From positions 205,741 through 269,740 of IMG/VR virus record IMGVR_UViG_3300017565_000001: DNA of 64,000 bases. The stretch is one strand, 5' to 3'. This DNA comes from a virus (Duplodnaviria; Heunggongvirae; Uroviricota; Caudoviricetes). Under the pieces are notes generated by a model. It was not told the origin of the DNA. It made no database searches and saw only the letters and a program-made list of their open reading frames with translations. Positions 1,284 through 33,781 of the stretch are shown in pieces (position 1 is the first letter of the stretch; each line of letters opens with the position of its first letter). The position numbers were made by a program, and so were the translations under genes.

Positions 1284-1344
1284 GGGATACCTGCAGCAAA
1301 CTCACTTACTTTTTCTTCATGCGAAAAACCCAAGTGTGTATCCC
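1284..1344 (+). ncRNA. minimal CAGCAA-stem RNA (Y-RNA-like)
   Basis: GGGATAC/GTATCCC closing stem, CTGCAGCAA, hairpin TTTTC-TTCATGC-GAAAA. Confidence 0.65.
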
Positions 1345-1464
1345 GTTATTTTCAATTTAACTTTCAGGAGAGCCTGTCATGGCAAGTGACAAATCTGGCA
1401 AACGCCTGGGAGTCATCACCTAATACCCTACTGGGGATTGTGTGGTAGACTCCCGAAACATAAT

Positions 1465-1541
1465 GGGAGTATGGCGCAATTGGTTAGCGCAAGGGACTTT
1501 TAATCCCGAGGTTCTGGGTTCGAATCCCAGTACTCCTACCA
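1465..1541 (+). tRNA. tRNA-Lys(TTT)
   Basis: loop CT-TTT-AA, CCA. Confidence 0.92.
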
Positions 1542-1547
1542 CACATC

Positions 1548-1624
1548 CCCTGTATAGCTCAATGGTTCAGAGCAACCGGCTTTTACCCGGTAGGTTGTCA
1601 GTTCGAGTCTGACTGCAGGGACCA
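1548..1624 (+). tRNA. tRNA-Lys(TTT), second copy
   Basis: ACCGG-CTTTTAC-CCGGT arm, CCA. Confidence 0.9.
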
Positions 1625-1633
1625 ATTTTTCAA

Positions 1634-1707
1634 TGCACGAAATGTCGTCTAGCGGTAAAGACACCGGGAAACCGGAGACGTGGGGTCGGCACCCACCACG
1701 TGCATCA
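1634..1707 (+). ncRNA. anticodon-less tRNA-like element
   Basis: D-arm GTCT/AGAC, CCGG-GAAA-CCGG in place of anticodon arm, GTGGG/CCCAC T-stem, TGCACG/CGTGCA ends. Confidence 0.55.
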
Positions 1708-1709
1708 AG

Positions 1710-1768
1710 TTGTATTTGCTGTACTGACTCTAACCAACGTACCGATTGAGTCAGTACAGCAAATACAA
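1710..1768. repeat. perfect 21-bp inverted repeat containing TACAGCAA
   Basis: TTGTATTTGCTGTACTGACTC ... GAGTCAGTACAGCAAATACAA. Confidence 0.85.
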
Positions 1769-1841
1769 TGAATAAACCGACCATGAACGATAGACATGGT
1801 GAGGGAACTCGTAACCCTCTAGGGCGTCAAACCCCTACTTT

Positions 1842-1916
1842 GGCCCGCTGATCTAATGGCTATGATGCCTCCCTGTCTAGGAGGTCGTCGGAGTTCGATT
1901 CTCCGGCGGGTCGCCA
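1842..1916 (+). tRNA. tRNA-Asp(GTC)
   Basis: CCTCC-CTGTCTA-GGAGG arm, GCCA end. Confidence 0.92.
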
Positions 1917-1947
1917 AAGAATTAACCAGCTAGTACCAGGAGGTATT

Positions 1948-2286
1948 ATGTCGTATAGAAAGATCACTGTTAACGACAAACAGTACGAGTACGTGATTGG
2001 GAAAACCCACACGAAGATCAAAGGCAAGGGCCTGTTCAAGAATTCCGAAGTTGGGGTTCCGCTAAAGCGCAGGGTTGGTGACGAGGTGAAAGAATCCTTC
2101 GTCGTCACCCCAGCGATTGTTGCTGACCTCATTGCCGGAAAGCCAATCAGACCCATGCACAAGTGCTATCATGGCACGGTGACTAGCAAAACGATGATCA
2201 ATCCGTATGATCATGAAGTATATGGTGAACGGAATACAATCGGCAAGTGTCATCTATGTCATGAAGCATTATCTGATGACATTTAA
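1948..2286 (+). CDS. hypothetical protein, C-terminal CxH..CxxC metal-binding motif
   Basis: AGGAGG RBS, 112 aa. Confidence 0.8.
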   Translation: MSYRKITVNDKQYEYVIGKTHTKIKGKGLFKNSEVGVPLKRRVGDEVKESFVVTPAIVADLIAGKPIRPMHKCYHGTVTSKTMINPYDHEVYGERNTIGKCHLCHEALSDDI

Positions 2287-2287
2287 T

Positions 2288-2366
2288 GGACGAGTGAAGG
2301 GAATCTGGTATACCTAGTTAGCTCAAACCTAACTGCTTGTCGGTTCGAATCCGACCTCGTCTACCA
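2288..2366 (+). tRNA. tRNA-Leu(CAA), short variable arm
   Basis: GTTAG-CTCAAAC-CTAAC arm, ACCA. Confidence 0.85.
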
Positions 2367-2374
2367 CAGCTTAT

Positions 2375-2660
2375 GGGCCCTCCCGTCTAGTGGCGCAGAC
2401 ACACCGAAAATCAATGGAGGGTGTGGCGTAATAGCCGAAGTGAAATAAAACTTGTGATAACTGGTTTGTTTCTGCATTGTGGATGATAACCTGGGAAGCA
2501 AGGATAAAATGACGTTCCACAAGGTTCTCAGAAGCACCTATAGCGGCCTCGAAAGGGGTGAGCCTCTAGCAAACAGCAAGGGAAGCGTGGTTTCCAAGGA
2601 ACGCACAGCCGAGTTTGTCGGTATCACTTTTTAGGGGTTCGATTCCCCTAGGGTCCACCA
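2375..2660 (+). ncRNA. 286-nt Ala-acceptor tmRNA-like RNA
   Basis: GGGCCCT/AGGGTCC-ACCA with G3-U70, T-arm AGGGG-TTCGATT-CCCCT, ~200-nt interior with ATAACTG resume-like motif. Confidence 0.6.
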
Positions 2661-2694
2661 ATAAATATAGCATATGACATATCTTGGAGTGTAT

Positions 2695-3057
2695 ATGCGA
2701 TATCAAGAAATTATGGAAGCACCAGCTAATCCGTTGGTGGCTATGTTCAAACCCTACAAAGCTATTCTCGCTGGTGGAAAACCTGTATTTGCAGACCAGG
2801 GTAATGGCGTAACGGCTACCCTATCCAGCAGTGGTGGTGAACCAAAGAAATGGTTCACCAATGCAAAAGCAAATGCCCAAGCTTTGGGGTTCGTTTACAA
2901 TCCAGAGAAGAGCAAAGAATTAAGTCGCGGCAGCAACCTGGGGTATTATTTTGAACACCCCAACGGTGCAGTCCTGATTACGAATGAAAATGATGGTATG
3001 GGTTACAAATATGTAGGCCGTTCTATCAAGTTGTTTGTTCCTCAAACAACTGAATAA
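2695..3057 (+). CDS. hypothetical late protein, possibly virion (MRYQEIME start)
   Basis: TAAATA upstream, GGAG RBS. Confidence 0.7.
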   Translation: MRYQEIMEAPANPLVAMFKPYKAILAGGKPVFADQGNGVTATLSSSGGEPKKWFTNAKANAQALGFVYNPEKSKELSRGSNLGYYFEHPNGAVLITNENDGMGYKYVGRSIKLFVPQTTE

Positions 3058-3067
3058 CCCTTTCAAT

Positions 3068-3146
3068 CTCTGCGTCGCCTAGTCTGGTGATGGCACTTGG
3101 CTGGGGGCCAAGAATAACGTAGGTTCGAATCCTACCGCAGAGACCA
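3068..3146 (+). tRNA. tRNA-Pro(GGG)
   Basis: CTTGG-CTGGGGG-CCAAG arm, C1-G72, CCA. Confidence 0.9.
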
Positions 3147-3155
3147 CCGTTTTAC

Positions 3156-3232
3156 GTATCTCTCAGACTAACTGGCAAGCTACTAGGCTCCAAACCTGGG
3201 TAATGTGGGTTCGAATCCTACGGGGTACGCCA
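3156..3232 (+). tRNA. tRNA-Trp(CCA), divergent copy
   Basis: CTAGG-CTCCAAA-CCTGG arm, GCCA end. Confidence 0.8.
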
Positions 3233-3300
3233 AATAACAGTTGATTCATTTGATTCATCCATGTATCATTTGGTTATACATAAAGAACATGGAGAGAAAG

Positions 3301-3621
3301 ATGGATCACAAAATATTCCATTTTCACGAAACGGTTGTGATGTCAGCTGACGAGAGTGATCCACAGGATTACGATCGTGTTATCAGCACTCACGAACTTC
3401 AAGTCAGTACCCGCAAGCTGGAGGCTTGGATCGCGGAGAACGAAGGCGAGTATCGCTATGTTCAACGCCTGATCGAAGAAGCTCTGGCTGGCAAAACTGA
3501 CCTGACAGCTTCACGGAAATATAGCTTCGGTGACACGCCGGATTGGTTCACTGGTCTGGCTCCCGATGTGGACTGCAAGGATCCCGTGGTTCAGGTTGAT
3601 ATCGAAATACGGGTGTGTTGA
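3301..3621 (+). CDS. hypothetical protein
   Basis: GGAG RBS, 106 aa. Confidence 0.75.
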   Translation: MDHKIFHFHETVVMSADESDPQDYDRVISTHELQVSTRKLEAWIAENEGEYRYVQRLIEEALAGKTDLTASRKYSFGDTPDWFTGLAPDVDCKDPVVQVDIEIRVC

Positions 3622-3625
3622 CATC

Positions 3626-3712
3626 ATGGATCTCCATAGTGCCATCATGCTCGGTGTCCTCGCCTTTGTGATCATTGGTGGGTTGATCATCGCATACCGA
3701 AGTAACAAGTAA
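3626..3712 (+). CDS. small single-pass membrane protein (28 aa)
   Basis: MDLHSAIMLGVLAFVIIGGLIIAYRSNK. Confidence 0.5.
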   Translation: MDLHSAIMLGVLAFVIIGGLIIAYRSNK

Positions 3713-3717
3713 GTTTA

Positions 3718-3796
3718 GGGCGAATGACGGGAATTTGGTATACCTCGTTGGTTTAGATTCAATGGTTTGTCGGTTCGAGTCCGACTTTGCCCACCA
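3718..3796 (+). tRNA. tRNA-Leu(TAG), short variable arm
   Basis: loop TT-TAG-AT, ACCA. Confidence 0.85.
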
Positions 3797-3804
3797 GTTT
3801 TAAT

Positions 3805-3935
3805 GCCCGGTTAGCTCAATTGGTTAGAGCGCGTAGAAGCCGAAAGGCACTATCCTGACAAGGATAGTTACAGCAATCAAACTCACATCCATGCTAAGGA
3901 CGAGGTTGGTGGTTCGAATCCATCACTGGGCACCA
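3805..3935 (+). ncRNA. tRNA body carrying an inserted CAGCAA-stem module
   Basis: normal acceptor, D-arm, T-arm and CCA; interior has ACTATCCT-GACA-AGGATAGT-TACAGCAA then TCC-ATGCTAA-GGA. Confidence 0.75.
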
Positions 3936-3948
3936 TTTTGCAAGACAA

Positions 3949-4086
3949 GTGTTATTTGATGTGGTACCTGGTGTTGGCCCAGTATGAAAGAACGTGGTCG
4001 GAGTCTACTCAACTCTAAGGCTGCCAGTATTTCGGAGCATTCGCAAAGAAGCCAGGATGTGGTAGGAGTATCACATCAAATAGCAT
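3949..4086 (+). ncRNA. structured ncRNA enclosed by long terminal stem
   Basis: GTGTTATTTGATGTGGTAC pairs with GTATCACATCAAATAGCAT; no ORF. Confidence 0.55.
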
Positions 4087-4139
4087 TTAGAATTTGACGC
4101 CATGAATGGCGATTAGTATAGTAGTGGTTCACCGGCAAT

Positions 4140-4226
4140 GCAGGGGTGAACGACGGTGCGTGTGAACAAGTTCCCGAAACGTAGGGAATGAGTTATTCGG
4201 GGTTCGACTCCCACGCCCTTGCACCA
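4140..4226 (+). ncRNA. degenerate tRNA-like RNA with CCA end
   Basis: GCAGGGG/CCCTTGC-ACCA, GGTTCGACTCC T-loop, no canonical D-arm or anticodon; own TTGACG-17-TATAGT promoter. Confidence 0.55.
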
Positions 4227-4239
4227 AAATATTAAGATC

Positions 4240-4362
4240 ATGAAACTGACACCACTAAAGCACAACAAAGACAATCGCATGTTACGAATTGGCTTTGGCA
4301 AAAACGTAGGACGATGGTTTTTCCGCATTGACCTATGGTGGTTTGGTCTCAGGATCACGTAA
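4240..4362 (+). CDS. 40-aa hypothetical protein
   Basis: MKLTPLKHNKDNRMLRIGFGK... fills the gap between RNA genes. Confidence 0.5.
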   Translation: MKLTPLKHNKDNRMLRIGFGKNVGRWFFRIDLWWFGLRIT

Positions 4363-4370
4363 GAACCAAT

Positions 4371-4447
4371 AGCTGGTTAGCTCAGTTGGTCAGAGCAGCT
4401 CTTTCATACGGAGAAGGTCACCAGTTCGAATCTGGTACCAGCTACCA
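4371..4447 (+). tRNA. tRNA-Met/Ile2(CAT)
   Basis: loop TT-CAT-AC, CCA. Confidence 0.88.
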
Positions 4448-4454
4448 TTTTATT

Positions 4455-4530
4455 GCACCCGTAGCTCAGTTGGTAGAGCGCCGCGTTGACATCGCGTAGG
4501 TCAGAGGTTCGAACCCTCTCGGATGCACCA
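4455..4530 (+). tRNA. tRNA-Val(GAC)
   Basis: CGCG-TTGACAT-CGCG, CCA. Confidence 0.93.
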
Positions 4531-4534
4531 TGTC

Positions 4535-4575
4535 TTGACCCCAGTACCAAATGAATGTAGAATGTTCTACATGGT
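4535..4575 (+). promoter_or_regulatory. promoter with CCAAATGAA and ACATGGT boxes
   Basis: TTGACC-17-TAGAAT, motif in spacer. Confidence 0.7.
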
Positions 4576-4591
4576 AACTAGGGAGAACGAT

Positions 4592-4846
4592 ATGAATCTT
4601 TTGAAGCTGAACACGGTTGATTGTGATTTTGACGCTTCAAAGGGCATTCTGAAATGTCGTTCGGGGGTGGGTAACTATCCCCAAGTTGTTGAAGTTACGT
4701 CTCATCATACAGGTAAGGTTGTTCGTTTCGTTCGTGACGAAGAGCTTGCCATTGCTAATGAAGGATGGGATGGTGAAGAGTGCTGGTACAAGCCGCAGGA
4801 GATTCTTCCGCGTGTTGATTACCTGGTTCTCTTTGCGCATTTGTGA
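4592..4846 (+). CDS. hypothetical protein
   Basis: GGAG RBS, MNLLKLNTV start. Confidence 0.75.
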   Translation: MNLLKLNTVDCDFDASKGILKCRSGVGNYPQVVEVTSHHTGKVVRFVRDEELAIANEGWDGEECWYKPQEILPRVDYLVLFAHL

Positions 4847-5037
4847 GTTTTGGTCGTTGAGTGGATGTCACGTCGGAAATATCCCCCATAGGGAGTGAGC
4901 ACTCTGATTTGATGCAGCAACGACATTTTCACCGGGATGATGTACGAGGCGCTGGTTCATGGGCGAATTCGAACAAACATGAACGTGGGGGTAAGTGGTA
5001 GAAACTGCCACAACCCTTCATGACATCATCCACCTAC

Positions 5038-5114
5038 AGGGGTGTAGTTCCAATTGGTAGAACGGCGGTCTCCAAAACCGTATGTTGGGAGTTCGAATCT
5101 CTCCACCCCTGCCA
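5038..5114 (+). tRNA. tRNA-Trp(CCA), host-like copy
   Basis: AGGGGTG acceptor, loop CT-CCA-AA, GCCA. Confidence 0.95.
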
Positions 5115-5203
5115 GAATTTATTGAATGCTTAAACATTCACTTGAGCATGTTGCCACCTTGTTGTAGACTTGGCTTTCCAAGTTTATGATAAATGGAGGC
5201 AAC

Positions 5204-5404
5204 ATGCTCTTTCTCGTTGAAGGCGAAATCTCGATCACCCAATATATGGGCGACACCAAGAAAGAAAAGGTACTCCGTATTGTTCGCGCCGACAATGCCG
5301 ACCAAGCGGAAGAAAAGTTCCGTAAACACTTTGAAGACATGACTGATGAATATTCGGTTTATTACTCCGTGGGTAACATGGAGGTAAACGAAGAAATATC
5401 CTGA
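5204..5404 (+). CDS. hypothetical protein
   Basis: GGAGG RBS. Confidence 0.75.
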   Translation: MLFLVEGEISITQYMGDTKKEKVLRIVRADNADQAEEKFRKHFEDMTDEYSVYYSVGNMEVNEEIS

Positions 5405-5445
5405 CGTAAAGTCAGTGATCCACCTATAACAAGCTGGAGGGCGAT

Positions 5446-5790: not shown

Positions 5791-5791
5791 C

Positions 5792-6031: not shown

Positions 6032-6092
6032 GCCATATTCGCTTGATGCAAACCCCTTGATGTCATACAATTTGGCATCAAGGGGTTTCTTC

Positions 6093-6509
6093 ATGTTTAA
6101 TTTTATTCGTAGATGGCTTGACAAATTAGCGGAAGCTAAAGAAACCTATCGCAAATACAAGGCCGCAGAAACTCTAGTTGCCCATTATCGCAAGTTCTGT
6201 GAGGACAACCAGACAACATGCACCATGACGAGTCGATCAGGAGATGTTGGCTATTTTTCATGGATTACGGGTCCGTTTAGAATTGAACAACGAGTGTTTG
6301 AGGGTGCGGGTTTTACCGTTATCGAGGTTTTCCACCAGAACCTCGGGAACAAAATTCTTGATTACACGTACTATGATCGTAAATCACCTTTAACGGATAA
6401 ATGGTGTGTGAACGGTGGTTTTGATCAAAATAGCATAACTATGATGATTTTATCTGGTGAAGAATACGAAATGGGAGGTTACGAGAAATGGCTTTATTCC
6501 ATCGATTGA
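6093..6509 (+). CDS. hypothetical protein (tandem family)
   Basis: ORF in tightly packed run. Confidence 0.7.
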   Translation: MFNFIRRWLDKLAEAKETYRKYKAAETLVAHYRKFCEDNQTTCTMTSRSGDVGYFSWITGPFRIEQRVFEGAGFTVIEVFHQNLGNKILDYTYYDRKSPLTDKWCVNGGFDQNSITMMILSGEEYEMGGYEKWLYSID

Positions 6510-7360: not shown

Positions 7361-7412
7361 CTCATTGTTTGCCACAATACAGAATGGCACTTTTGAACTT
7401 TTGGGAAATATA

Positions 7413-8009: not shown

Positions 8010-8073
8010 ACCAGGTCTTGACTCCCTGTTCATTTGGTAGCAGAATACGCTATCAGATAACAGGGAGTCACAA

Positions 8074-8517: not shown

Positions 8518-8531
8518 CTTTCCCTACTATC

Positions 8532-9490: not shown

Positions 9491-9578
9491 GCGCACTAAG
9501 GCGTAGGCCACGCTAAGTGAGGTCACAGCCGCACTCCTAATAAGAGTGGGGTTGCAGGTTCGAATCCTGTGGTGTGCC
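9491..9578 (+). ncRNA. tRNA-Ile(AAT)-like RNA with expanded D region, no CCA
   Basis: CACTC-CTAATAA-GAGTG arm, GCAGG-TTCGAAT-CCTGT T-arm, inside long stem 9476-9593. Confidence 0.6.
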
Positions 9579-9697: not shown

Positions 9698-9699
9698 AT

Positions 9700-10594
9700 G
9701 GGACGTCTAAGTTCCAGTTGGTGGCTTCGGTCGCTGACAAAAAGGATAAGTGAGGTAACTCACCCAACGCGGGTAATCCTACATAACCGCGCCATGCTTG
9801 CATGGTCCATTTAGACAAGCCTGCTCACTACCGAAAGGTAGCCATCACTTCCCAACGGGTGGTGGTAATTGTGAAGCAAGTGAAGTGGAAAGAATTGTCG
9901 TTTACACGCCTGTTTTGACTTCGGTCATTACGGGGAACGTGAGCAACAAGAGAGTAACAGGTGGTGCTGACCTCACTTCAAAACCAACTTGCCAACTTGT
10001 ATGAGAAAGGGTAGCTAATTGTTCCGAGGTGTTGCAACCAAGGGGTAGTTAGCAGTTCTAATGGTTGACGGGCATATGCACGTTAATCGTGAAGAACGAC
10101 TGAGTAGTCCGCAAGACGAAAGGTACATGGTGTGTTGTATTTCGTGGCTCAAAAGGTCATGAAGCAACTGAGGCAGCACATCATAGTAGGTTGCAATATA
10201 GCTCATTTGGTAGAGCAATTCCATGTTAAGGAATCGGCGGTGGGTTCAAACCCCACTATTGATAAAAATGCAAAGTCTGCCTCGGTATGTTGTGAAAGTC
10301 ATCTAATGCTCAGAGCTTCGGCTAACTGAGTCCAGGAAAGCTCGCAAGGCCTACTTGGTTTATGTTTAGATTTTCGTAAGTGGTTAGCGCTGCTGAATGG
10401 CCCGCAAGGTCAGCGTAATGAAGAACGTAGAATAGCAACATGCGACAAGCCTACTGCCTGGCTTTAAAAACGGCGATGACGCTAGTGGACAGTATGAGAC
10501 GAAAGTCCGTATTGTGGATGTCGAGAGAAAGTTGCCCGCAAGGTGACCAATAATGCTCGAGGCACTAGTAGGAACCATGTAATCTCAGTGGTCC
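9700..10594 (+). ncRNA. probable GOLLD RNA
   Basis: ~900 nt non-coding, dense GNRA/UUCG hairpins (GCAA, GAAA, TTCG), GGTGGTGCTG and terminal GTAATCTCAG motifs recalled from GOLLD, in a tRNA cluster, followed by hairpin 10602-10620. Confidence 0.7.
10192..10263 (+). tRNA. tRNA-Asn(GTT)-like module embedded in the large ncRNA
   Basis: TAGCTCATTTGGTAGAGC D-arm, TTCC-ATGTTAA-GGAA, GTGGG-TTCAAAC-CCCAC; short acceptor, no CCA. Confidence 0.65.
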
Positions 10595-19222: not shown

Positions 19223-19398
19223 ATAATATGCCACACTGATGGCATATAGGGAGCGAGGAAATGAAGGAATTCAAGACGCAGTTGAAGTACATGTGGACCT
19301 TTTTCATGGTCGACGTGAAACTGTACTTTCGCCCCCTGACATGGCTTTATGGTCGTTTACGAGCATTGATTACTCGTAAGTGATCAACCAGAATCCCA

Positions 19399-19513
19399 GG
19401 TTGGTTTCAGCAAACAAAACTTACTCTTCTGCAAAAAGAAAGGCCCAGGTTCGAATCCTGGCGTGGGGTTGGGATCCTACGTGGTGTAGTGGATAGCACA
19501 AAACATACCAACC
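19399..19513 (+). ncRNA. permuted tRNA-like CAGCAA RNA (YrlA-like topology)
   Basis: GGTTGGT/ACCAACC stem, TTCAGCAA, TCTT-CTGCAAA-AAGA hairpin, T-arm CCAGG-TTCGAAT-CCTGG, looped acceptor, D-arm; promoter TTGATT-17-CAGAAT. Confidence 0.8.
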
Positions 19514-19592
19514 AGTTATTAGGAAAACCTTGCTTTGTTCACCAAATGAATGTATTATTTGATACATGGTAAACAACAGCAAGGAGCACAAC

Positions 19593-26618: not shown

Positions 26619-26813
26619 GAGGCCTGGTCGTCAACCAACCAGGTATGAACAACTGGAATTGATTCGCCATATTCCCAAGAGGGCTCCAGATGAGCGAATC
26701 ACAGTGCATCACATCACCGAACATGGCGTCAATACCCTACAACTTGAAATAGTTAGAAATTCCCCAACTTTGGGTCTTGCTTTTGAAAGAATCTTTCTGT
26801 AAACTGTTTTCTG

Positions 26814-26986
26814 TGGTTAGATACAGCAATGTACTCTGAAAATCCGACAAGTGGCGCAAGCCCAGAAGCATTTGAGTCGGTCGCTTGAATGCTTCTTTGA
26901 GGGTTCGACTCCCTCCACTGCTAAGGGTAAAACCTCTGTAGTGTGGTGAAATTGGTAGACACATCGGACTTAGACTCAACTAACCA
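26814..26986 (+). ncRNA. permuted tRNA-Leu-like CAGCAA RNA
   Basis: TGGTTAG/CTAACCA stem, ATACAGCAA, TCCGA..TCGGA stem, long variable arm, GAGGG-TTCGACT-CCCTC, looped acceptor, GGTGAAATTGGTAGACAC D-arm; promoter TTGCTT-17-TAAACT. Confidence 0.8.
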
Positions 26987-27076
26987 GTTTGTTCTCCTTA
27001 TTGGGCTCTGTTTGAAAGAGCAGAGCCCAATTCATAATGTGTTTTGGTATCAGATCACATTATGAATTGCAGTTTT

Positions 27077-27197
27077 GGGTTCGTTACAGCAAACAAACTA
27101 TCCTACTGGAATCAGCTTACCGTGGGTTCGAATCCCACCTGGAGTTTACACTCCAGTAGCCAAGTTGGTAAGGCAGCTGACGGAAAAACACGAACCC
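27077..27197 (+). ncRNA. permuted tRNA-like CAGCAA RNA
   Basis: GGGTTCGT/ACGAACCC stem, TACAGCAA, GTGGG-TTCGAAT-CCCAC, CTGGAGT-TTAC-ACTCCAG acceptor, GCCAAGTTGGTAAGGC D-arm. Confidence 0.85.
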
Positions 27198-27206
27198 GTT
27201 AATTTT

Positions 27207-27338
27207 TGGATCATTACAGCAACATACGATACCTCAAGCTCCGGACACGGGTTCGATTCCCGTAGACCATTAATTTGGTTTTCGTCTAGCGGCAGGATAG
27301 GAGCCTCGCATCGGTGGTAAGGCCCACCGGATGATCCA
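27207..27338 (+). ncRNA. permuted tRNA-Glu-like CAGCAA RNA
   Basis: TGGATCAT/ATGATCCA stem, TACAGCAA, CTCAA-GCTCC..GGAGC, ACGGG-TTCGATT-CCCGT, TCGTCTAGCGGCAGGA D-arm. Confidence 0.85.
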
Positions 27339-27346
27339 GTCATAAG

Positions 27347-27374
27347 TGAAAGCCAGGATTGCTCCTGGCTTTCA
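27347..27374 (+). terminator. terminator closing the permuted-RNA array
   Basis: TGAAAGCCAGGA-TTGC-TCCTGGCTTTCA. Confidence 0.65.
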
Positions 27375-27500
27375 TGCTTTCTGGCTTTCACAAACCAGAT
27401 TCGTCACACAAGATTGTAAAAGTCGTGCCAAATGCTTTGGCACCTCGACATCTTTGCCATTTCTTATCGTATAATTGTGTTCCTTAGTAGCGAACACAGG

Positions 27501-28124
27501 ATGTACGGAAACATGAATGAATTGGTAAAGCGCTTCACTGAAAAATACGGCAACATCGTTGGTGAGGCAACCAATGGTAGCGATGTGGCACCCATCGGCT
27601 TTATCGAAGCAAGCCAAACCTATATTGTGTTTTACCCAGACGCAATGGATCGGCAGGAATATTCCAGGGGTGGCCAAGTCAAATATCGCCCTGGGTATCA
27701 GGGGCCTGCCCTTACCTTCCAATCTCAGGAAGAAATCGACGAAGAAGAGGATGCGATCGATCGCATCCTGCGGGCAAGCCAAACTCTCCGTAAACGGAAG
27801 GGCAGGGAGGTTAAGGCTGCCAACACTCGCGATGTCAAGGAAGCAGTGTGGGACCGCCAAAAGGAATACCGGAATATCGAAATCCCTGATTTCCTGGAAG
27901 AGTTCATCACCAGAGCTGAACTGGCATTTCAAGAAATCATGAGCGCTGTTCAGGGCGACTTCCGAGTCTTTGATACGGCCCAGGCAGCTTTCAACGGCAT
28001 TCTGGACTGTGGCTTCTTCCTGAATGTGGTGTCGGATTTCACAGAAGACGACGTTCGCCAACTGCGCGATCTCCCGGAGAAGTATCATCTGTATCTGGGG
28101 GCAGACTACGTGGGACCTCAATGA
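27501..28124 (+). CDS. hypothetical protein
   Basis: 207-aa ORF. Confidence 0.75.
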   Translation: MYGNMNELVKRFTEKYGNIVGEATNGSDVAPIGFIEASQTYIVFYPDAMDRQEYSRGGQVKYRPGYQGPALTFQSQEEIDEEEDAIDRILRASQTLRKRKGREVKAANTRDVKEAVWDRQKEYRNIEIPDFLEEFITRAELAFQEIMSAVQGDFRVFDTAQAAFNGILDCGFFLNVVSDFTEDDVRQLRDLPEKYHLYLGADYVGPQ

Positions 28125-28501
28125 GCAAAACAGTGGACAGTGGAATCATAGAGAGTATCAAGCACTACGTGATGCACGGCCTTCACCCAGGATCATGTGG
28201 CAGAGCCATCATTCTGGGTGACTACGAATTGGCTAAAGGAACGGCTCATGCTTTGATCCGAAGAATGATGCAATCTTACCCAGAGGATGATCTGATTCAG
28301 AATATGATTGACTGGGTGAATAACACCTTGCCAGAGTTCATGCGATCCTCAGAAGAGAACTTCATCAACTGGGTGGATCATGCTGGTCTTGATGGAGCAG
28401 GAGATGAGATCAGAATGTTCATAAAGTTGAATCCTATCAGGAATATGGATAAGTGGGACTTGAGGTCTGTATGGGTGGAGGAAGGGAAGAAAGTAGTATA
28501 G
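28121..28501 (+). CDS. hypothetical protein
   Basis: ATGA coupling; HYV.HGL.PGS motif. Confidence 0.75.
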   Translation: MSKTVDSGIIESIKHYVMHGLHPGSCGRAIILGDYELAKGTAHALIRRMMQSYPEDDLIQNMIDWVNNTLPEFMRSSEENFINWVDHAGLDGAGDEIRMFIKLNPIRNMDKWDLRSVWVEEGKKVV

Positions 28502-28683
28502 ACATGTTTCACGAATATGTCGTAGATGCTATCACGAACCTTCTGTATGTCGTAGAACTCCAGGTAAGAATATCACAGATTCATGACGAGATTTGGTAAT
28601 CACTCATTGATGATGTGTCAATCTCCAGGTAGACTTCTGCAAACTCAAGCAATGGCAGCTTCAAAACAATAACAGGTTGAATA

Positions 28684-29298
28684 ATGGCAATTGGTTTCAA
28701 TGTAATTCGTTTGGCATCTGGTGGTTGGTTCAACTTTGATGAGCCCGAAAACAACAGGGTTCAGATCCAGGATGTGGCCCATGGTCTGGCGTTTATCTGC
28801 CGATATGGCGCGCAATGTCCTCGTTTCTATTCAGTAGCCAGCCACTCTGTCCTCGTCAGCCAAATTCTGTACCACATGGGTGAATCCATTCATGTACAAT
28901 ACGAAGGATTGATGCATGACTCCAGTGAAGCGTTCATGGGCGATATGGTGACCCCGCTGAAGCGGCTCTGTCCCGAATATGCTGGTATTGAAGGACGAGT
29001 GCTTGCCAACTTGGCTGAGACTTTCGGCTTCAACCATGAGTTTCACTCCAGCATGGACCAGGCTGACAAGACTGCTCTGGCTATGGAGAAATGGACGTTC
29101 TGGCCCGATTCTGAACCATGGGAAATTCTGATCAAATACGGTCTGGAAACTAGGGATGGTGGTCGAAACCAAAAGTGGGCGGCTTTGATGGAAGACCCAA
29201 GCATCAAGCGAGCATTGGTGACTGGTAGCTACGATGAGGCCAGCTATTTTCTGGATCATTACAACAAACTTCGCAAAGAGATTGATAATGGAAATTGA
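28684..29298 (+). CDS. HD-domain phosphohydrolase (YfdR/YfbR-like)
   Basis: DVAHGLA..CRY..YSVASHS..LMHDSSEAFMGDM. Confidence 0.88.
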   Translation: MAIGFNVIRLASGGWFNFDEPENNRVQIQDVAHGLAFICRYGAQCPRFYSVASHSVLVSQILYHMGESIHVQYEGLMHDSSEAFMGDMVTPLKRLCPEYAGIEGRVLANLAETFGFNHEFHSSMDQADKTALAMEKWTFWPDSEPWEILIKYGLETRDGGRNQKWAALMEDPSIKRALVTGSYDEASYFLDHYNKLRKEIDNGN

Positions 29299-29692
29299 AT
29301 CAAAACAAGTCATCGTGGTCCGTAAGGATCTGGGGATGCGCAAAGGCAAGATGATTGCGCAAGGAGCTCACGCCAGCATGGCGGCTGTAATCAACCAAGG
29401 CCACATCACCGAAGGGCAAGATCCCAATACCCATTATCTGGTCATCCCCATGGATCCAGAAATGCATGTGTGGATCAACGGTCGCTTCAAGAAGATTGCC
29501 GTATCGGTAAACAGCGAAGCAGAATTGCTGGCAATTCACCAGAAGGCCCTGGACGCTGGCCTTTACAGTGCCCTGATACAAGACGCAGGTCTGACGGAGT
29601 TTGGGGGCCAGGCGACCTATACGGCGGTGGCAGTCGGTCCCAATAGGGCTGATAAAGTCGACGCGATCACCGGCTCTCTGCCACTGCTCTGA
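29288..29692 (+). CDS. pth2: peptidyl-tRNA hydrolase, Pth2 type
   Basis: KQVIVVRKDL.M.KGK.IAQGAHA..DAGLTEF..T..AVGP..VD.ITG.LPLL. Confidence 0.92.
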   Translation: MEIESKQVIVVRKDLGMRKGKMIAQGAHASMAAVINQGHITEGQDPNTHYLVIPMDPEMHVWINGRFKKIAVSVNSEAELLAIHQKALDAGLYSALIQDAGLTEFGGQATYTAVAVGPNRADKVDAITGSLPLL

Positions 29693-29696
29693 TCAC

Positions 29697-30080
29697 ATGT
29701 TCGGCCGCTTCAAGCTGAATAGAAAGCGACGGCTTGCCCGTCGTATAGCTATCTGGCTTCTTGCTGACCACAAACTGGAGAAGCATTCTTCTCAGCTAAC
29801 AGCTTGGCATTTTCTTCATGAGAATGCGGACTTGTTGTGGACGAGTTTCTCTTCTGGGCGTCTATGGTTGCGGCGAATCAAACACAACAAAGATTTGAGT
29901 GCATCTGATCTGTTGATGAACAACATAAATCTCTGTCATATTCGTGACGGCTTACTATTCAACGACTGTGTTGAATCATCATCTTTTAGTTGGCGCATTC
30001 TGTTCCTTAGGGTGTATATAGGCTTTTTGATTTTCTTTATCTGCGCCCAAATAGCCAATATGATCTTCAACTTCATCTAG
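29697..30080 (+). CDS. hypothetical membrane-anchored protein
   Basis: C-terminal TM helix. Confidence 0.55.
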   Translation: MFGRFKLNRKRRLARRIAIWLLADHKLEKHSSQLTAWHFLHENADLLWTSFSSGRLWLRRIKHNKDLSASDLLMNNINLCHIRDGLLFNDCVESSSFSWRILFLRVYIGFLIFFICAQIANMIFNFI

Positions 30081-30159
30081 GTCAGGTGAATTAAACAACA
30101 CATTTACGAAACCCTGTTCGGCGATAAATACCATTGCTTTAGCTTTGGAGGACACGAAC

Positions 30160-30765
30160 ATGGCTACTCTAGTAGGGCGCTCGCCCAAAGACACGCTGGC
30201 AGAACTGCTCACATACAATAACGCAGCTGGCATCGGGTCAACACTCAACGCAATTGGTGATGGCGTAGGAAACGTCTCTCCATTGCAGCTTTCCACGACC
30301 CAAGTATCAATCAACAACCTGGTGTGGCCCACGACAGGCGCAAACCAAAACCGAGTTCTGGCTATTGGTGCATCCAATCAGCTGGAATGGCGTGATGGTT
30401 ATGTGACCACTACTGGTACCACCTTTACAGGTAATGTGAAGTTCTATACCACGACTGAGACTGTTGTGGCAATTCCTGGTACGACTGGCACTCGCACTAT
30501 TCCAGTCATGACTGGTACATACTTCACCGCAACTATCAGCGGTGCCACCACATTTGCATTCAGTGGCACACCAACTTCTGGTGATGCATACAGCATCACG
30601 ATCGAGATCACCAATGGTGGCTCGGCAAACCTGAACTGGCCCGCCTCAGTTGTGTGGCCAGCCGCCACGGCTCCAGTTTTGAGCACAAGCGGCGTTGACT
30701 ATGTGGTTCTGATCACCCGTAATGGTGGTACAACCTGGTATGGTCGTTCGAGCCTGGGTACTTGA
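30160..30765 (+). CDS. tail fiber-associated structural protein
   Basis: Thr/Gly-rich, ITNGG...WPA...P.L..SGVD...T..GGTTWYG C-terminal domain; TAAATA promoter. Confidence 0.7.
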   Translation: MATLVGRSPKDTLAELLTYNNAAGIGSTLNAIGDGVGNVSPLQLSTTQVSINNLVWPTTGANQNRVLAIGASNQLEWRDGYVTTTGTTFTGNVKFYTTTETVVAIPGTTGTRTIPVMTGTYFTATISGATTFAFSGTPTSGDAYSITIEITNGGSANLNWPASVVWPAATAPVLSTSGVDYVVLITRNGGTTWYGRSSLGT

Positions 30766-30790
30766 TTAAATAGTAGAACAGGAGATAGGA

Positions 30791-31402
30791 ATGTATATCA
30801 AACTTAATGAATCAGGACTTCCAACCGGTGACGTCGTGTCAATCGACGGTATCCGTATGGCAAATCCTTCGACCTCGGTCCCATCAAACCCAACTGACGA
30901 ACATTTGGTAGAATTGGGCTATGGGCGTTTCAAATACGTGGAATACCCAGCAGTTGACGAATTCACAGTCGTCACCGTTGGTGATTACGAACAAGATCAA
31001 GATGGTGTGTGGTTTCAGGACTACGTGCAGAACGACATTTCTCTGGAGACCGCTAAGGCTATCCTGAAGAAGCGCGTTGGTGAACGTCGTTGGGCTGTCG
31101 AAAGCGGTGGTATCACTGTTGGTGGCATTCTGGTTGACACTACCATCGAAGCACAAAACCGTATCAGCAGTGTTGTCCTTAACGGCACTCGTGTTGGTAT
31201 GGAAAGCATCAACTTCAAGTCACCAGATGGTGCATTCAATACCATCACTATGACACAAATGACAGCTATTGCCGACGCTATCGCTGCTCATGTGCAGAAT
31301 TGCTTCACCGCCGAAGCAACTCACTGCGCTGAAGTTGAAGCTCTGACTAGCTTGGCTGAAGTTCGCGAATATATGACTGGTGGCCTGCTGGCAAACTGGT
31401 AA
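30791..31402 (+). CDS. tail fiber assembly-like protein (DUF4376-type)
   Basis: RW..ESGGITV.G..VDT...Q..I..AI..HVQ.CF.AE. Confidence 0.7.
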   Translation: MYIKLNESGLPTGDVVSIDGIRMANPSTSVPSNPTDEHLVELGYGRFKYVEYPAVDEFTVVTVGDYEQDQDGVWFQDYVQNDISLETAKAILKKRVGERRWAVESGGITVGGILVDTTIEAQNRISSVVLNGTRVGMESINFKSPDGAFNTITMTQMTAIADAIAAHVQNCFTAEATHCAEVEALTSLAEVREYMTGGLLANW

Positions 31403-31535
31403 TATATTTCACTTAATGATGGGGAGCAATTGCTCCCCATCATTTTGAATGGTGAACATGAATAAGTGTTTGACGTTTTGAAATGGCGCAATCTATACTG
31501 GTGCCAATTAGCAATTGTCAACACGGACAAAGATC

Positions 31536-32093
31536 ATGAAGATTTCATATCGTATCGGGAACCTGCTCAATCATCCCGACAAATTTATCGCACAAGGATG
31601 CAACGCCCAGGGCCAGATGGGCTCTGGAGTAGCCGCAGCAATCAGGGGTCGATATCCTAAGGCATATGATGTGTATGCCGCCCACCATGAACGTTTTGGG
31701 TTGATCCTGGGCAACGTCATTGTCGCAGACTGTGTCCCCCACACGATACTGAACTGTATCACTCAAGAATTCTTTGGACGTGATGGCGGCCTTTATGTGA
31801 GCTACGACGCAATCGAGCGAGCAATTCAAACGGTCGATGAACTGATGCGTGTGGAGCGCAGCAAAATCTACACCAGCTGTGACATGCAGGGCGACCCCAG
31901 CCTGATCCCCAGGGTTGGTTATCCTCTCATTGGTGGCGATCTGGGTGGTGGTGATTGGGCCGTGATCAGCAAGATCATCGAAGACTTTTCGGATCACCAT
32001 CAACCAATAGTGTACTTGCTGGACCGAAAAGTCATTCAGGACAAGAATATCCCCGTCGAACAAGTTGACGAAACCTATCAGGAAAAGGCTTGA
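31536..32093 (+). CDS. macrodomain (ADP-ribose processing) protein
   Basis: GCNAQGQMGSGVA.AI..P.IGGDLGGGDW. Confidence 0.88.
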   Translation: MKISYRIGNLLNHPDKFIAQGCNAQGQMGSGVAAAIRGRYPKAYDVYAAHHERFGLILGNVIVADCVPHTILNCITQEFFGRDGGLYVSYDAIERAIQTVDELMRVERSKIYTSCDMQGDPSLIPRVGYPLIGGDLGGGDWAVISKIIEDFSDHHQPIVYLLDRKVIQDKNIPVEQVDETYQEKA

Positions 32094-32151
32094 CAAATGG
32101 CAAACCTAGCATAATACTGAAGATAACCCGGCGAACTATTACCAAGCCGGA

Positions 32152-32241
32152 TGGATCAAGACAGCAAAGTTATTTGGCACTTTCCAGCTACAGGCTGGAA
32201 AACAACAAAGATTGCCTAATCTCAAAATAGGCATTGATCCA
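32152..32241 (+). ncRNA. CAGCAA-stem RNA immediately upstream of DUF2828 gene
   Basis: TGGATCAA/TTGATCCA stem, GACAGCAA, two internal hairpins. Confidence 0.7.
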
Positions 32242-32365
32242 GAACGACAAACACACTTATACTATAGATTGAATATTTGAAATGAACTTGGGTGTGTAGA
32301 CCGTTTGTGGCTCATATTAGAGAATAGCCACAAACAACCACCCGTTAACCAAGGAGTAACACACG

Positions 32366-33781
32366 ATGTCCACTTTCGCTCAAGCAGTTGCCGCTCAAAC
32401 CACGACCACCACCAACGGTGCCAAGGCTTACACCTCCACCCTGAGTGCGGCGGTTGATCTGTTCTTCAAGATCGGCGCCAGCCGTGGCAAGAACATCATC
32501 TCGGATTTCACCGCCGCTTATGTGGAGAATCCGGATGTCGCTCTGCGTATCGCGCAATGGGCTCGTGACGTGCGTGGTGGCTCGGGAGAACGCCAAATCT
32601 TCCGTGACATCCTGCAACACCTGGAGAACTCGGCTCCGGCCGACGCCCAGCGTCTGATCAACAACATTCCGGAGATCGGACGCTGGGATGACCTCCTGGT
32701 CCTGACCAACCCCCTGCTGAAGCAACATGCTTTCGGCCTGATCAAGGTTGCGCTGGAAGCCGGCAACGGCCTCTGCGCAAAGTGGATGCCGCGCAAGGGT
32801 AAGGTCGCCGAAGAACTTCGCGCGTTCCTGGGCTATTCGCCCAAGCGTTACCGCAAGACTCTGGTGACGCTGACCCAAGTGGTCGAAACGCAGATGTGCG
32901 CCCAGCAATGGGATGAAATCGAATTCGGTAAGGTGCCCTCGGTCGCCGCTGCTCGTTACAAGAAGGCGTTCAACCGTAACGCGCCGGAAACTTTCGCCGC
33001 TTACGCGGACGCGCTGAGCAAGGGTGAAGCCAAGGTCAACGCTGGTGCGGTGTTCCCGTACGATGTGCTGAAGGGCGCATTCTCGCAGTATGGCCGTAAC
33101 TCCATGCCTCTGCCGGAACGTCAACACGCTATCGCCCAGTGGGCCGCTCTGGAAAACTTCGTGGGCGATGCATCGGTTCTGCCGATGGTCGACGTGTCGG
33201 GTTCCATGTACTGCCCGGCCGGTGGTCACAACTCCAAGTCGAACGTGACTTGTATGCAGGTCGCCGTTTCGCTTGGTCTGTATCTGGCGGAAAAGAACAC
33301 GGGCGCGTTCAAGGACACGTTCCTGACGTTTACCGATCAGCCCAAGCTGTACAACCTGAAGGGTGACGTCTTCCAGAAGATGGATCAGATGACCGGTAAG
33401 GTTGGCTACAGCACCAACATCCAAGCCGCTTTCCGTGAAGTTCTGCGTGTGGCGGTGGAAGGTAAGGTTGCTCAAGCTGACATGCCGGCAAACATCGTGA
33501 TCCTGAGCGATATGCAGTTCGACCAGGTGTCGCGTGACGACGCTACGGCGTTCGACATGATTCGCGAAGAGTACAAGGCCGCCGGCTACGACGCTCCGCG
33601 TATTGTGTTCTGGAACCTGAACGCGCATGGCAACGTTCCGACCCGCTTCAACCAGTCGGGTGTTGCACTGGTTTCGGGCTTCTCGCCCGCGATCGCGAAG
33701 ACCGTTCTGAAGGCCGAGAACTTCGACCCGATGAACATCATGCTGCAAGCTGTGATGGTTGACCGCTACACGCTGGCGTAA
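32366..33781 (+). CDS. DUF2828 family TROVE/Ro60-like RNA-binding protein with vWA domain
   Basis: TNG..ST..VDLFF..GASRG, RDVRGG.GER, GRWDDL, AKWMPR, YRK, VPS.A, vWA MIDAS DVSGSM, ILSDMQFD, FWNL, VSGFSP; strongly biased codons. Confidence 0.85.
   Translation: MSTFAQAVAAQTTTTTNGAKAYTSTLSAAVDLFFKIGASRGKNIISDFTAAYVENPDVALRIAQWARDVRGGSGERQIFRDILQHLENSAPADAQRLINNIPEIGRWDDLLVLTNPLLKQHAFGLIKVALEAGNGLCAKWMPRKGKVAEELRAFLGYSPKRYRKTLVTLTQVVETQMCAQQWDEIEFGKVPSVAAARYKKAFNRNAPETFAAYADALSKGEAKVNAGAVFPYDVLKGAFSQYGRNSMPLPERQHAIAQWAALENFVGDASVLPMVDVSGSMYCPAGGHNSKSNVTCMQVAVSLGLYLAEKNTGAFKDTFLTFTDQPKLYNLKGDVFQKMDQMTGKVGYSTNIQAAFREVLRVAVEGKVAQADMPANIVILSDMQFDQVSRDDATAFDMIREEYKAAGYDAPRIVFWNLNAHGNVPTRFNQSGVALVSGFSPAIAKTVLKAENFDPMNIMLQAVMVDRYTLA

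What the first reader, a model, noticed from the sequence alone, without database searches (positions are those of the whole stretch)
1284..33781. Candidate Ro/Y-like system: a family of CAGCAA-stem RNAs plus a DUF2828 (TROVE-vWA) protein
Seen: seven dispersed non-coding elements (1284, 3805, 19399, 26814, 27077, 27207, 32152) share a 7-8 bp stem whose strand runs directly into a (T/G/A)CAGCAA motif, usually followed by an A/C-rich linker. The stem sequences differ but stay complementary. Three begin at the predicted start site of their own sigma70 promoter (1284, 19399, 26814), and one precedes the DUF2828 gene at 32366. Known: bacterial Ro60 (TROVE+vWA) proteins bind Y RNAs through the stem formed by the RNA ends, Y RNA genes usually lie near the Ro gene, and YrlA RNAs carry a tRNA-like module. 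The canonical Ro-binding GGUCCGA-type helix is absent here. Inference: DUF2828 is a divergent Ro whose cognate RNAs use a stem-CAGCAA handle carrying interchangeable tRNA-mimic cargo.
Basis: partly seen in the sequence, partly recalled or inferred. Interest (0 to 1): 0.93.

Follow-up and report, generated by a model that had tools for sequence, protein, structure and literature searches.

The report
Phage Ro60-like protein with partner RNAs
A 424-kb phage encodes a ring-shaped relative of the RNA-binding protein Ro60 plus ten small RNAs that share one conserved "handle" and carry tRNA look-alike parts; the same pairing recurs in hundreds of viruses, I found no paper or Rfam family describing it, and it gives a very large protein family of unknown function a likely RNA partner.

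Summary
A signature taken from unrelated loci finds the six ordinary copies in the window. It finds none on the other strand and 0.3 on average in shuffles. The seventh (3805-3935) is the same module circularly permuted inside a CCA-ending tRNA body. Three more copies lie just upstream of the window in this complete 424,529-bp phage genome.

The DUF2828 protein (32366-33781) is predicted with high confidence to have the full Ro60 architecture: Z 21.6 to Xenopus Ro60, and all top hits are Ro60 proteins. It does not match Pfam's TROVE profile.

The handle RNA and the gene travel together in both directions. It occurs in 74 of 80 viral loci chosen by the protein, always on the gene's strand. It also occurs in more than 120 viral stretches chosen by the RNA pattern alone, most of which encode the protein.

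Rfam has no family for these RNAs. One cargo matches only the tRNA-like core of YrlA. The handle has the same build as the Class I RNAs of Dictyostelium.

Binding and expression are untested. Only one of the three promoters claimed to start an element passes the promoter scan.

This scan has reported the same pairing many times on other DNA.

The parts
1283..1348 (+). E1: short family member. It has a terminal 7-bp stem, CAGCAA at 1294-1299, and a cargo hairpin whose 7-nt loop has the anticodon-loop pattern (UU-CAU-GC).
   Evidence: Model R1 scores it 31.7 bits, E 1e-5. It has no Rfam match even at E 10. A promoter-like site at 1248-1276 ends 7 nt upstream.
3805..3935 (+). E2: the circularly permuted form. 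It is a tRNA-shaped RNA with an open acceptor stem and ACCA. The handle is a closed hairpin (3849-3868) running into TA-CAGCAA (3869-3876). It is inserted between the D arm and an anticodon-like hairpin.
   Evidence: The Rfam tRNA model scores it 45.5 bits with a long insertion. ARAGORN does not call it. Sequence, fold.
19397..19518 (+). E3: handle (stem 19399-19405 with 19507-13, CAGCAA 19408-13) carrying a permuted whole tRNA-like body. The order is anticodon-like hairpin (loop CU-GCA-AA), T arm, loop-closed acceptor stem, D arm.
   Evidence: ARAGORN's tRNA-Cys at 19393-19470 is a miscall of this element.
26813..26990 (+). E4: handle (stem 26814-20 with 26980-86, CAGCAA 26824-29) carrying a permuted type-II (long variable arm, Leu-like) tRNA body.
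   Evidence: Its D and T arms are closest to the phage's tRNA-Leu genes.
27076..27200 (+). E5: handle (stem 27077-84 with 27190-97, CAGCAA 27087-92) carrying a YrlA-type tRNA mimic: T arm, acceptor stem closed by a 4-nt loop, D arm.
   Evidence: Rfam YrlA RF02553 positions 23-89, 35.5 bits, E 5.8e-6, below the threshold of 69. Fold.
27206..27342 (+). E6: handle (stem 27207-14 with 27331-38, CAGCAA 27217-22) carrying a third permuted tRNA-like body plus an extra hairpin. A strong hairpin follows at about 27345-27380.
32151..32245 (+). E7: handle (8-bp stem 32152-59 with 32234-41, CAGCAA 32162-67) carrying two plain hairpins. It ends 125 nt upstream of the DUF2828 start codon.
   Evidence: Promoter-like sites lie at 32090-32118 and 32234-32263.
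32366..33781 (+). The DUF2828/DUF7788 protein (471 aa). Its predicted architecture is Ro60-like: a helical-repeat ring plus a vWA domain carrying a DxSxS...T...D metal-site pattern. It is the only copy in the genome.
   Evidence: Pfam. Invariant residues in 41 homologues. Model with pLDDT 88. Foldseek and VIA-align both put Ro60 proteins first. Single copy.

Best explanation
The phage makes a ribonucleoprotein of the Ro60/Y-RNA kind from parts that differ from the canonical ones. The protein is a DUF2828-type Ro60 look-alike. Its partners are a family of small RNAs built as follows: a terminal stem joins the 5' and 3' ends; a single-stranded (U)UA/UU-CAGCAA lies just inside the 5' strand; a short G-U-rich tail follows the 3' strand.

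This handle is the likely protein-binding site. It stands in the place of the stem-plus-CGAA bulge of YrlA and phage Yrl RNAs. Between the two stem strands sits an exchangeable cargo. In this genome four cargos are circularly permuted tRNA bodies, one is a CCA-ending tRNA body, and the rest are hairpins, some with anticodon-type loops.

The cargo probably presents tRNA features to enzymes that act on tRNA, either recruiting them to the ring or baiting them. A counter-defence role in the contest over tRNAs is plausible.

Shown here: the RNA family and its covarying stem, its strand-specific linkage to the gene, and the protein's predicted fold. Inferred: binding, the role of CAGCAA, stable expression, and the function of the cargo.
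For: Protein.
- The model has pLDDT 88 and pTM 0.87.
- The 13 best Foldseek hits are all full-length Ro60/TROVE proteins.
- VIA-align gives Z 21.6, rmsd 4.0 A over 408 residues to Xenopus Ro60. vWA-only proteins come next at Z 10.7 or less.
- D276, S278, S280, T350, D382 and many Arg/Lys in the helical half are invariant in 41 homologues.
- Some eukaryotic relatives are fused to zinc-knuckle or KH RNA-binding domains.

RNA.
- 34 short members align with an 8-bp stem in which 6 pairs show compensatory changes.
- On 88 model hits 94% of cells pair. The covariation score is 0.65, against 0.18 shuffled and 0.15 or less when slid.

Linkage.
- CAGCAA lies within 400 nt upstream of the gene in most of 80 loci holding proteins 51-68% identical to the window's.
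- Model R1 gives 156 hits at E 0.01 or less in 74 of 80 loci, all on the gene's strand.
- An exact handle pattern finds at least 120 viral stretches. My estimate of the chance expectation is about one.
- 27 of 80 fetched stretches encode the protein. So do 12 of 15 longer contigs among the rest.
- No other window gene recurs in more than 3 of the 80 loci.

This genome. Ten members all lie on the + strand within the tRNA-rich 181-238 kb region.

Precedent.
- Canonical phage Ro60 binds two upstream Yrl RNAs, each a 5'-3' stem with a CGAA bulge (PMC12135203).
- YrlA carries a tRNA-like domain (PMC4201824).
- A preprint reports that the Ro60-like gp130 of the Felix O1-type phage Bas63 counters the Ppl defence, and guesses that some neighbouring tRNA genes are Y RNAs (10.1101/2024.10.10.617714).
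- A Felixounavirus record holds a homologue of the window's protein followed by two R1 hits in its tRNA array.
Against: No binding or expression data could be obtained.

The protein fails Pfam's TROVE profile. It has no significant sequence match to any solved Ro60. Kinship therefore rests on a predicted fold.

Co-occurrence does not say which protein binds the handle. Many family members end 10-25 nt before the gene's start codon, which also fits a cis-acting leader.

In Dictyostelium the only proven direct binder of the look-alike Class I RNA is an RRM protein, not a Ro-like one (PMC7919456).

The 34 training sequences were picked by a detector that required a paired stem. Their 100% pairing is partly built in. 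Only the outermost pair, the conserved flanks and the later model hits are independent of that choice.
Confidence: 0.7

Rival explanations
1. The handle elements are cis-acting RNA signals, not free partner RNAs. They could be a leader through which the DUF2828 gene is autoregulated, or processing and spacer signals within long tRNA-array transcripts.
For: In many loci the last element ends 10-25 nt before the gene's start codon and lies on the same strand. In this genome the elements sit among tRNA genes and mostly lack a scan-passing promoter of their own.
Against: Copies lie up to 57 kb from the single DUF2828 gene. E7 is separated from the gene by 125 nt that contain a promoter-like site. 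The cargos are elaborate tRNA mimics, which a leader would not need. An autoregulatory leader would still imply that the protein binds the handle, so this rival partly overlaps the main reading.
Confidence: 0.12
2. The RNAs are real small RNAs, but the handle is bound by some other phage or host factor. The Ro-like protein merely works in the same pathway, for example on the same tRNA-related substrates.
For: Linkage cannot identify the binder. The one proven direct binder of the similarly built Dictyostelium Class I RNA is the RRM protein Rnp1A/CIBP (PMC7919456).
Against: No other gene near the window's copy recurs in the related loci. The handle follows the DUF2828 gene across very different viruses. 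Ro60 proteins are known to bind stem-plus-bulge RNAs encoded beside them (PMC12135203, PMC4201824).
Confidence: 0.12
3. E3-E6 are true permuted tRNA genes, as in the red alga Cyanidioschyzon. Their transcripts would be circularised at the terminal stem and then opened in the acceptor loop to give working tRNAs.
For: The order T arm, acceptor, D arm is that of permuted tRNA genes. The bodies have good T and D arms.
Against: The acceptor stem of E5 is closed by only 4 nt, with no discriminator or CCA. The junction carries an invariant CAGCAA rather than differing anticodons. The same handle carries non-tRNA hairpins (E1, E7). The family tracks a Ro-like gene, not a splicing endonuclease.
Confidence: 0.03
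4. The similarity is chance, or the remains of a repeated or mobile DNA element with no RNA-level role.
For: CAGCAA is generally over-represented in the window. Loose stem scans give many false hits.
Against: The specific signature is found 6 times against 0.3 expected and never on the other strand. The stems covary. The family recurs beside the same gene in viruses whose proteins are only 30-68% identical to the window's.
Confidence: 0.01

Closest known systems
Ro60 (Rsr/TROVE2) with Y RNAs: bacterial and mycobacteriophage YrlA/YrlB (Rfam RF02553; Chen et al. 2014, PMC4201824) and Thermus phage phiLo Ro60 with Yrl1/Yrl2 (PMC12135203; PDB 9KOP, 9L5Y)
   Same: The predicted protein has the same ring-plus-vWA architecture. 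The RNAs are encoded beside the gene. Their 5' and 3' ends form a stem next to a conserved single-stranded motif. At least one RNA per genome carries a tRNA-like domain of the same permuted order, and E5 matches the YrlA core.
   Different: The protein belongs to Pfam DUF2828/DUF7788 and fails the TROVE profile. The RNA motif is CAGCAA directly after the 5' stem strand, not GNCGAA/CGAA. No member reaches the YrlA threshold. There are many copies per genome, with far more varied cargo: anticodon-arm mimics, whole permuted tRNAs and a CCA-ending form.
Class I RNAs of dictyostelid social amoebae (Rfam RF01414; Kjellin et al. 2021, PMC7919456)
   Same: They are small RNAs of about 55 nt with the same layout. 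A short covarying stem joins the ends. A conserved motif ending in UUACAGCAA lies directly after the 5' strand. The middle is variable. The termini are conserved, AAG at the start and CUGU at the end. RF01414 is the best Rfam hit for short viral members (21.4 and 24.4 bits). Felixounavirus members read AAG-stem-UACAGCAA...stem-CUGGU.
   Different: The scores are below the threshold of 41.5, and E1 gives no hit. Class I RNAs were reported as unique to Dictyostelia and have their own DUSE promoter. Their proven binder is an RRM protein. I could not find a Dictyostelium DUF2828 protein with the tools at hand.
Bas63 gp130 (Felix O1-type phage), a Ro60-like counter-defence gene (PhageMaP preprint, 10.1101/2024.10.10.617714)
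   Same: It is a Ro60-like protein by structure comparison, encoded directly upstream of the phage tRNA array. The authors suggest that some of the 'tRNA' genes are Y RNAs. Felix O1-type phages hold homologues of the window's protein at about 40% identity, with handle RNAs in the array.
   Different: The preprint defines no RNA family or motif. I did not verify that gp130 itself is the DUF2828-type homologue; I checked only a related Felixounavirus. The window's phage is a 424-kb environmental virus with no known host.

Membership tests
Ro60 / TROVE proteins | Helical-repeat (HEAT-like) ring closed by a C-terminal vWA domain | tested here: met
   This is a predicted model only. VIA-align gives Z 21.6, rmsd 4.0 A over 408 residues, model 9-453 against Xenopus Ro60 12-537. 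All ten best entries are Ro60/TROVE proteins.
Ro60 / TROVE proteins | Match to the TROVE sequence profile (Pfam PF05731), or significant sequence similarity to a solved Ro60 | tested here: not met
   Pfam gives only DUF2828 and DUF7788. phmmer against PDB sequences gives nothing. The family profile touches TROVE chains only at the vWA metal site, E 1.2.
Ro60 / TROVE proteins | [quoted passage not shown] | tested here: met
   D276, S278, S280, T350 and D382 are invariant in 41 homologues. Their assignment to the site is by pattern.
Ro60 / TROVE proteins | Binds Y RNAs encoded nearby | not testable with these tools
   Only linkage is shown.
YrlA (Rfam RF02553) | Score at or above the curated threshold (69 bits) | tested here: not met
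   There is no match in the window at the gathering threshold. E5 scores 35.5 bits on positions 23-89 only. Related loci score 39-41 bits.
YrlA (Rfam RF02553) | tRNA-like domain in the order T arm, loop-closed acceptor stem, D arm | tested here: met
   For E5 by alignment to the model. For E3, E4 and E6 by sequence and fold.
YrlA (Rfam RF02553) | GNCGAA(N)G motif near the 5' end, the putative Ro60 site (PMC4201824) | tested here: not met
   All members carry CAGCAA at that place instead.
Dictyostelid Class I RNAs (Rfam RF01414) | Score at or above the curated threshold (41.5 bits) | tested here: not met
   21.4 and 24.4 bits for short members in related loci. There is no hit for E1.
Dictyostelid Class I RNAs (Rfam RF01414) | Short terminal stem, 11-nt motif right after its 5' strand, variable body, conserved AAG and CUGU termini | tested here: inconclusive
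   The layout and 8 of the 11 motif bases agree. In related loci the termini read (U/A)AGG...CCUGUU. In this window the first stem pair varies and the tail is G(U/A)N. Homology as against convergence is not resolved.
Dictyostelid Class I RNAs (Rfam RF01414) | DUSE promoter about 60 nt upstream; dictyostelid genome | tested here: not met
   This is a phage genome. The flanks are bacterial-type promoters or tRNA genes.
tRNA (Rfam RF00005), for E2 only | Cloverleaf with acceptor, D, anticodon and T arms at the curated threshold | tested here: inconclusive
   E2 scores 45.5 bits against a threshold of 29, but with an insertion of about 55 nt that holds the handle. ARAGORN does not call it. Whether it is charged is unknown.

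The most novel reading that the evidence does not exclude
The stem-CAGCAA handle is an ancient RNP module shared across domains. On this reading the Class I RNAs of Dictyostelium, so far unexplained and reported as unique to social amoebae, are its eukaryotic members, and they work with a DUF2828-type Ro60-like protein. [quoted passage not shown] The last is a protein of unknown function conserved in all Dictyostelia (bioRxiv 10.1101/2020.04.05.026054). If DDB_G0281243 is the amoeba's DUF2828 protein, experimental evidence for the pairing already exists.
Probability: 0.3. Interest if true: 0.92.

Novelty: new variant of a known kind. Interest (0 to 1): 0.8.

Why it matters
DUF2828 is a very large family with no known function. 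A eukaryote-based profile finds 9,611 representatives at 50% identity. Homologues of the window's protein occur in 711 cultured-phage records. The lists also name plants, fungi, dinoflagellates and Naegleria.

A defined RNA partner turns this family into a testable RNP and roughly doubles the known reach of the Ro60/Y-RNA principle. The cargos copy tRNA parts, often anticodon loops of Lys, Thr, Arg, Ser, Asn and Tyr type. From my own knowledge, several of these tRNAs are targets of anticodon nucleases. This points to a role in the tRNA-centred arms race between phages and hosts. It fits the one genetic result in print, a preprint reporting that Bas63 gp130 counters the Ppl defence.

If the Dictyostelium link holds, it would also explain a 20-year-old orphan RNA class.

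Tried and rejected
- Megablast of 26700-34000 against cultured phages gave no match.
- Rfam at gathering thresholds gave nothing at any element except the tRNA model on E2.
- Model R1 was built from short members. It finds E1 cleanly but mis-aligns or misses the long-cargo members E3-E7. Those rest on my script and on folds.
- A loose stem+CAGCAA scan is too noisy to be evidence.
- Four extra signature hits elsewhere in the genome (18339, 160497, 277054, 359533) lie within what look like coding sequences, have 6-bp stems, and were rejected.
- I searched for a Dictyostelium DUF2828 protein. Three word-index searches, one exhaustive profile search and a look-up of ten AT-rich candidates named many eukaryotes but no dictyostelid. 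Only the top 120-150 rows of thousands are visible, so this is inconclusive. One AT-rich-looking candidate (P0246) sits on a 42% GC contig and is not Dictyostelium.
- The Avesson 2011 and Burroughs & Aravind 2016 papers are not held.
- I guessed a GenBank accession for Bas63. It turned out to be another phage, and I dropped the attempt.
- BLAST of the tRNA-like cargos against the phage's own 56 tRNAs gave only generic T- and D-arm matches. No donor tRNA can be named except a Leu-like type for E4.

Full report
**Setting**

The window is bases 205741-269740 of a complete 424,529-bp virus record with direct terminal repeats. It is 48% G+C. ARAGORN tRNAs in the window and 56 tRNAs plus a tmRNA in the genome. 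Megablast finds no close relative among cultured phages.

**The observation**

I read the seven sites and folded them. Six of them (E1 1283-1348, E3 19397-19518, E4 26813-26990, E5 27076-27200, E6 27206-27342, E7 32151-32245) share one build:
- a 7-8 bp stem joins the two ends and begins xGG(A/T)T;
- 2-3 nt after its 5' strand comes CAGCAA;
- its 3' strand is followed by G(T/A)N.

The stems differ in sequence but stay complementary. Unconstrained folds recover the terminal stem in all six. The motif is left fully unpaired in E1, E3, E5 and E6 and only partly in E4 and E7.

The seventh, E2 (3805-3935), is the same module turned inside out. The handle is a closed hairpin (3849-3868) that runs into TA-CAGCAA, while the tRNA acceptor stem is open and ends in ACCA. 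Rfam's tRNA model accepts it with a long insertion (45.5 bits). ARAGORN does not call it.

Bare CAGCAA is common in this window (83 against 45 expected), and a loose stem scan is noisy. I therefore took the signature from unrelated viral loci and counted it here. It occurs six times on the + strand, exactly the six elements, and never on the - strand. In 200 dinucleotide shuffles the mean is 0.3 and the maximum 2.

Three further members lie outside the window, at genome 181165-181224, 181229-181294 (60.5 bits with my model) and about 202364-202615. All ten are on the + strand in the tRNA-rich 181-238 kb region.

Of the three promoters said to start an element, only the one before E1 passes the scan. 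A promoter-like site also precedes E7.

**The protein**

Pfam assigns 32366-33781 to DUF2828 plus DUF7788 and gives no TROVE match. Sequence searches against solved structures find nothing significant.

An AlphaFold2 model built on 41 homologues is confident (pLDDT 88, pTM 0.87). Its 13 best Foldseek matches are all full-length Ro60 proteins. VIA-align results:
- Xenopus Ro60: Z 21.6, rmsd 4.0 A over 408 residues, spanning model residues 9-453.
- Human Ro60 complexes: Z 19-20.8.
- Thermus phage phiLo Ro60: Z 16-17.6.
- Deinococcus Rsr: Z 12.
- The next entries are vWA domains alone, at Z 10.7 or less.

The DxSxS...T...D metal-site pattern and many basic residues of the helical half are invariant. 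The protein therefore works like, and is probably distantly related to, Ro60, but it is not a member of Pfam's TROVE family.

This likeness is partly recognised already. Mycobacteriophage records call the homologue a 'Ro-like RNA binding protein' and other records call it an 'RNA-binding protein'. UniRef names some plant and fungal members TROVE proteins. A preprint notes the Ro60-like fold of Bas63 gp130.

**The RNA family and its link to the gene**

A scan of viral contigs with the protein gave 260 relatives, of which 80 loci were kept; their proteins are 51-68% identical to the window's. In most of them CAGCAA lies within 400 nt upstream of the gene. The contexts show one architecture: (U/A)AGG-stem, UU or UA, CAGCAA, a variable insert, stem-CCU, GUU.

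Thirty-four short members align with an 8-bp stem in which six pairs show compensatory changes. My detector required seven of those pairs, so their pairing is partly built in. The outermost pair and the flanks were not required, and they are conserved.

The covariance model R1 then found 156 matches at E 0.01 or less in 74 of the 80 loci. Every one is on the strand of the gene. On 88 distinct hits 94% of cells pair. The covariation score is 0.65, against 0.18 for shuffles and 0.15 or less for slid partners.

I estimate about one match by chance. Of 80 fetched stretches, 27 encode the protein. Of 15 longer contigs among the rest, 12 encode it elsewhere, and the three without it are 15-32% complete fragments. 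No other gene around the window's copy recurs in more than 3 of the 80 loci.

**Cargo**

- E5 matches the tRNA-like core of YrlA (positions 23-89, 35.5 bits, below the threshold of 69).
- E3, E4 and E6 have the same permuted order: T arm, loop-closed acceptor stem, D arm.
- E3 also keeps an anticodon-like hairpin, which is why ARAGORN miscalls it tRNA-Cys.
- E4 is of the long-variable-arm, Leu-like type.
- E1 and two of the outside members carry hairpins whose 7-nt loops have the anticodon-loop pattern.

Across the family, a crude count finds that more than half of the non-T-loop 7-nt hairpin loops have that pattern, against 6% expected. Lys-UUU, Thr-UGU, Arg-UCU, Ser-UGA, Asn-GUU and Tyr-GUA are the commonest.

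**Comparison with what is known**

Canonical Ro60 partners (YrlA, phiLo Yrl1/2) are also encoded beside the gene. They also have a 5'-3' stem next to a conserved single-stranded motif, but that motif is GNCGAA/CGAA (PMC4201824, PMC12135203). Rfam 15 holds no family for the handle. A full-text search for DUF2828 returned only five unrelated papers.

The best Rfam hit for short members is the Class I RNA of Dictyostelium (21-24 bits against a threshold of 41.5). The resemblance covers every conserved feature of that class: the terminal stem, the UUACAGCAA motif directly after the 5' strand, the variable body, and the AAG and CUGU termini. Felixounavirus members read AAG-stem-UACAGCAA...stem-CUGGU.

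The 2021 paper states that Class I RNAs exist only in Dictyostelia. Its preprint version lists the four proteins pulled down with DdR-21. One of them, DDB_G0281243, has no known function. I could not obtain that protein or find a dictyostelid DUF2828 member. The link therefore stays a lead.

**Earlier notes of this scan**

I opened the earlier notes only after reaching the reading above. The scan has reported this same protein-RNA pairing on other DNA more than 150 times, including the Class I resemblance and the tRNA-part cargos. These are unchecked AI notes that agree with mine and are not independent evidence. None mentions DDB_G0281243.

**Verdict**

The finding is a new variant of the Ro60/Y-RNA kind. 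Binding, expression and function are still to be shown.

Noticed in passing
window 10127-10591: A full-length GOLLD RNA (Rfam RF02032, 199.9 bits, E 6e-55) with a tRNA-Asn gene (10191-10265) embedded in its 5' half. It lies in the same tRNA-rich region as the handle RNAs.
   Followed up: no
window 19393-19470: ARAGORN's tRNA-Cys (anticodon at position 39) is a miscall. It spans the handle, the anticodon-like hairpin and the T arm of element E3.
   Followed up: yes
window 9491-9578: ARAGORN reports a tRNA-like gene with a four-base anticodon (caca) and no assigned amino acid.
   Followed up: no
window 26991-27075 and 27345-27380: Two strong hairpins fill the spacer between E4 and E5. Another G+C-rich hairpin follows E6. 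E4-E6 may therefore form one transcription unit, with structured spacers and a terminator that the simple scan does not call.
   Followed up: no
window 33865-35142: The gene directly downstream of the DUF2828 gene encodes a 425-aa protein with a partial match to carboxypeptidase Taq (Peptidase_M32, E 1e-42). It is not conserved in the 80 related loci.
   Followed up: partly
genome 181165-181294 and about 202364-202615 (24.5 and 3.4 kb upstream of the window): Three more family members lie here. One is a close paralogue of E1. One carries a Lys-type (CU-UUU-AA) anticodon-arm mimic. One carries a cargo of about 230 nt.
   Followed up: partly
related proteins P0003, P0031, P0044: Eukaryotic or metagenomic DUF2828 proteins fused to a CCHC zinc knuckle or to KH domains. 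Both are RNA-binding modules.
   Followed up: no
genome 41648-42040 and 53129 (outside the window): The phage encodes its own tmRNA and a tRNA with a CUA (amber-reading) anticodon, which ARAGORN labels tRNA-Pyl.
   Followed up: no
L204 (Escherichia phage REP7, OQ174506) 6288-6418: The record annotates a 131-nt 'tRNA-Thr' and a 'tRNA-OTHER' in the array just after the Ro-like gene. These oversized calls may be further handle or tRNA-mimic RNAs.
   Followed up: no
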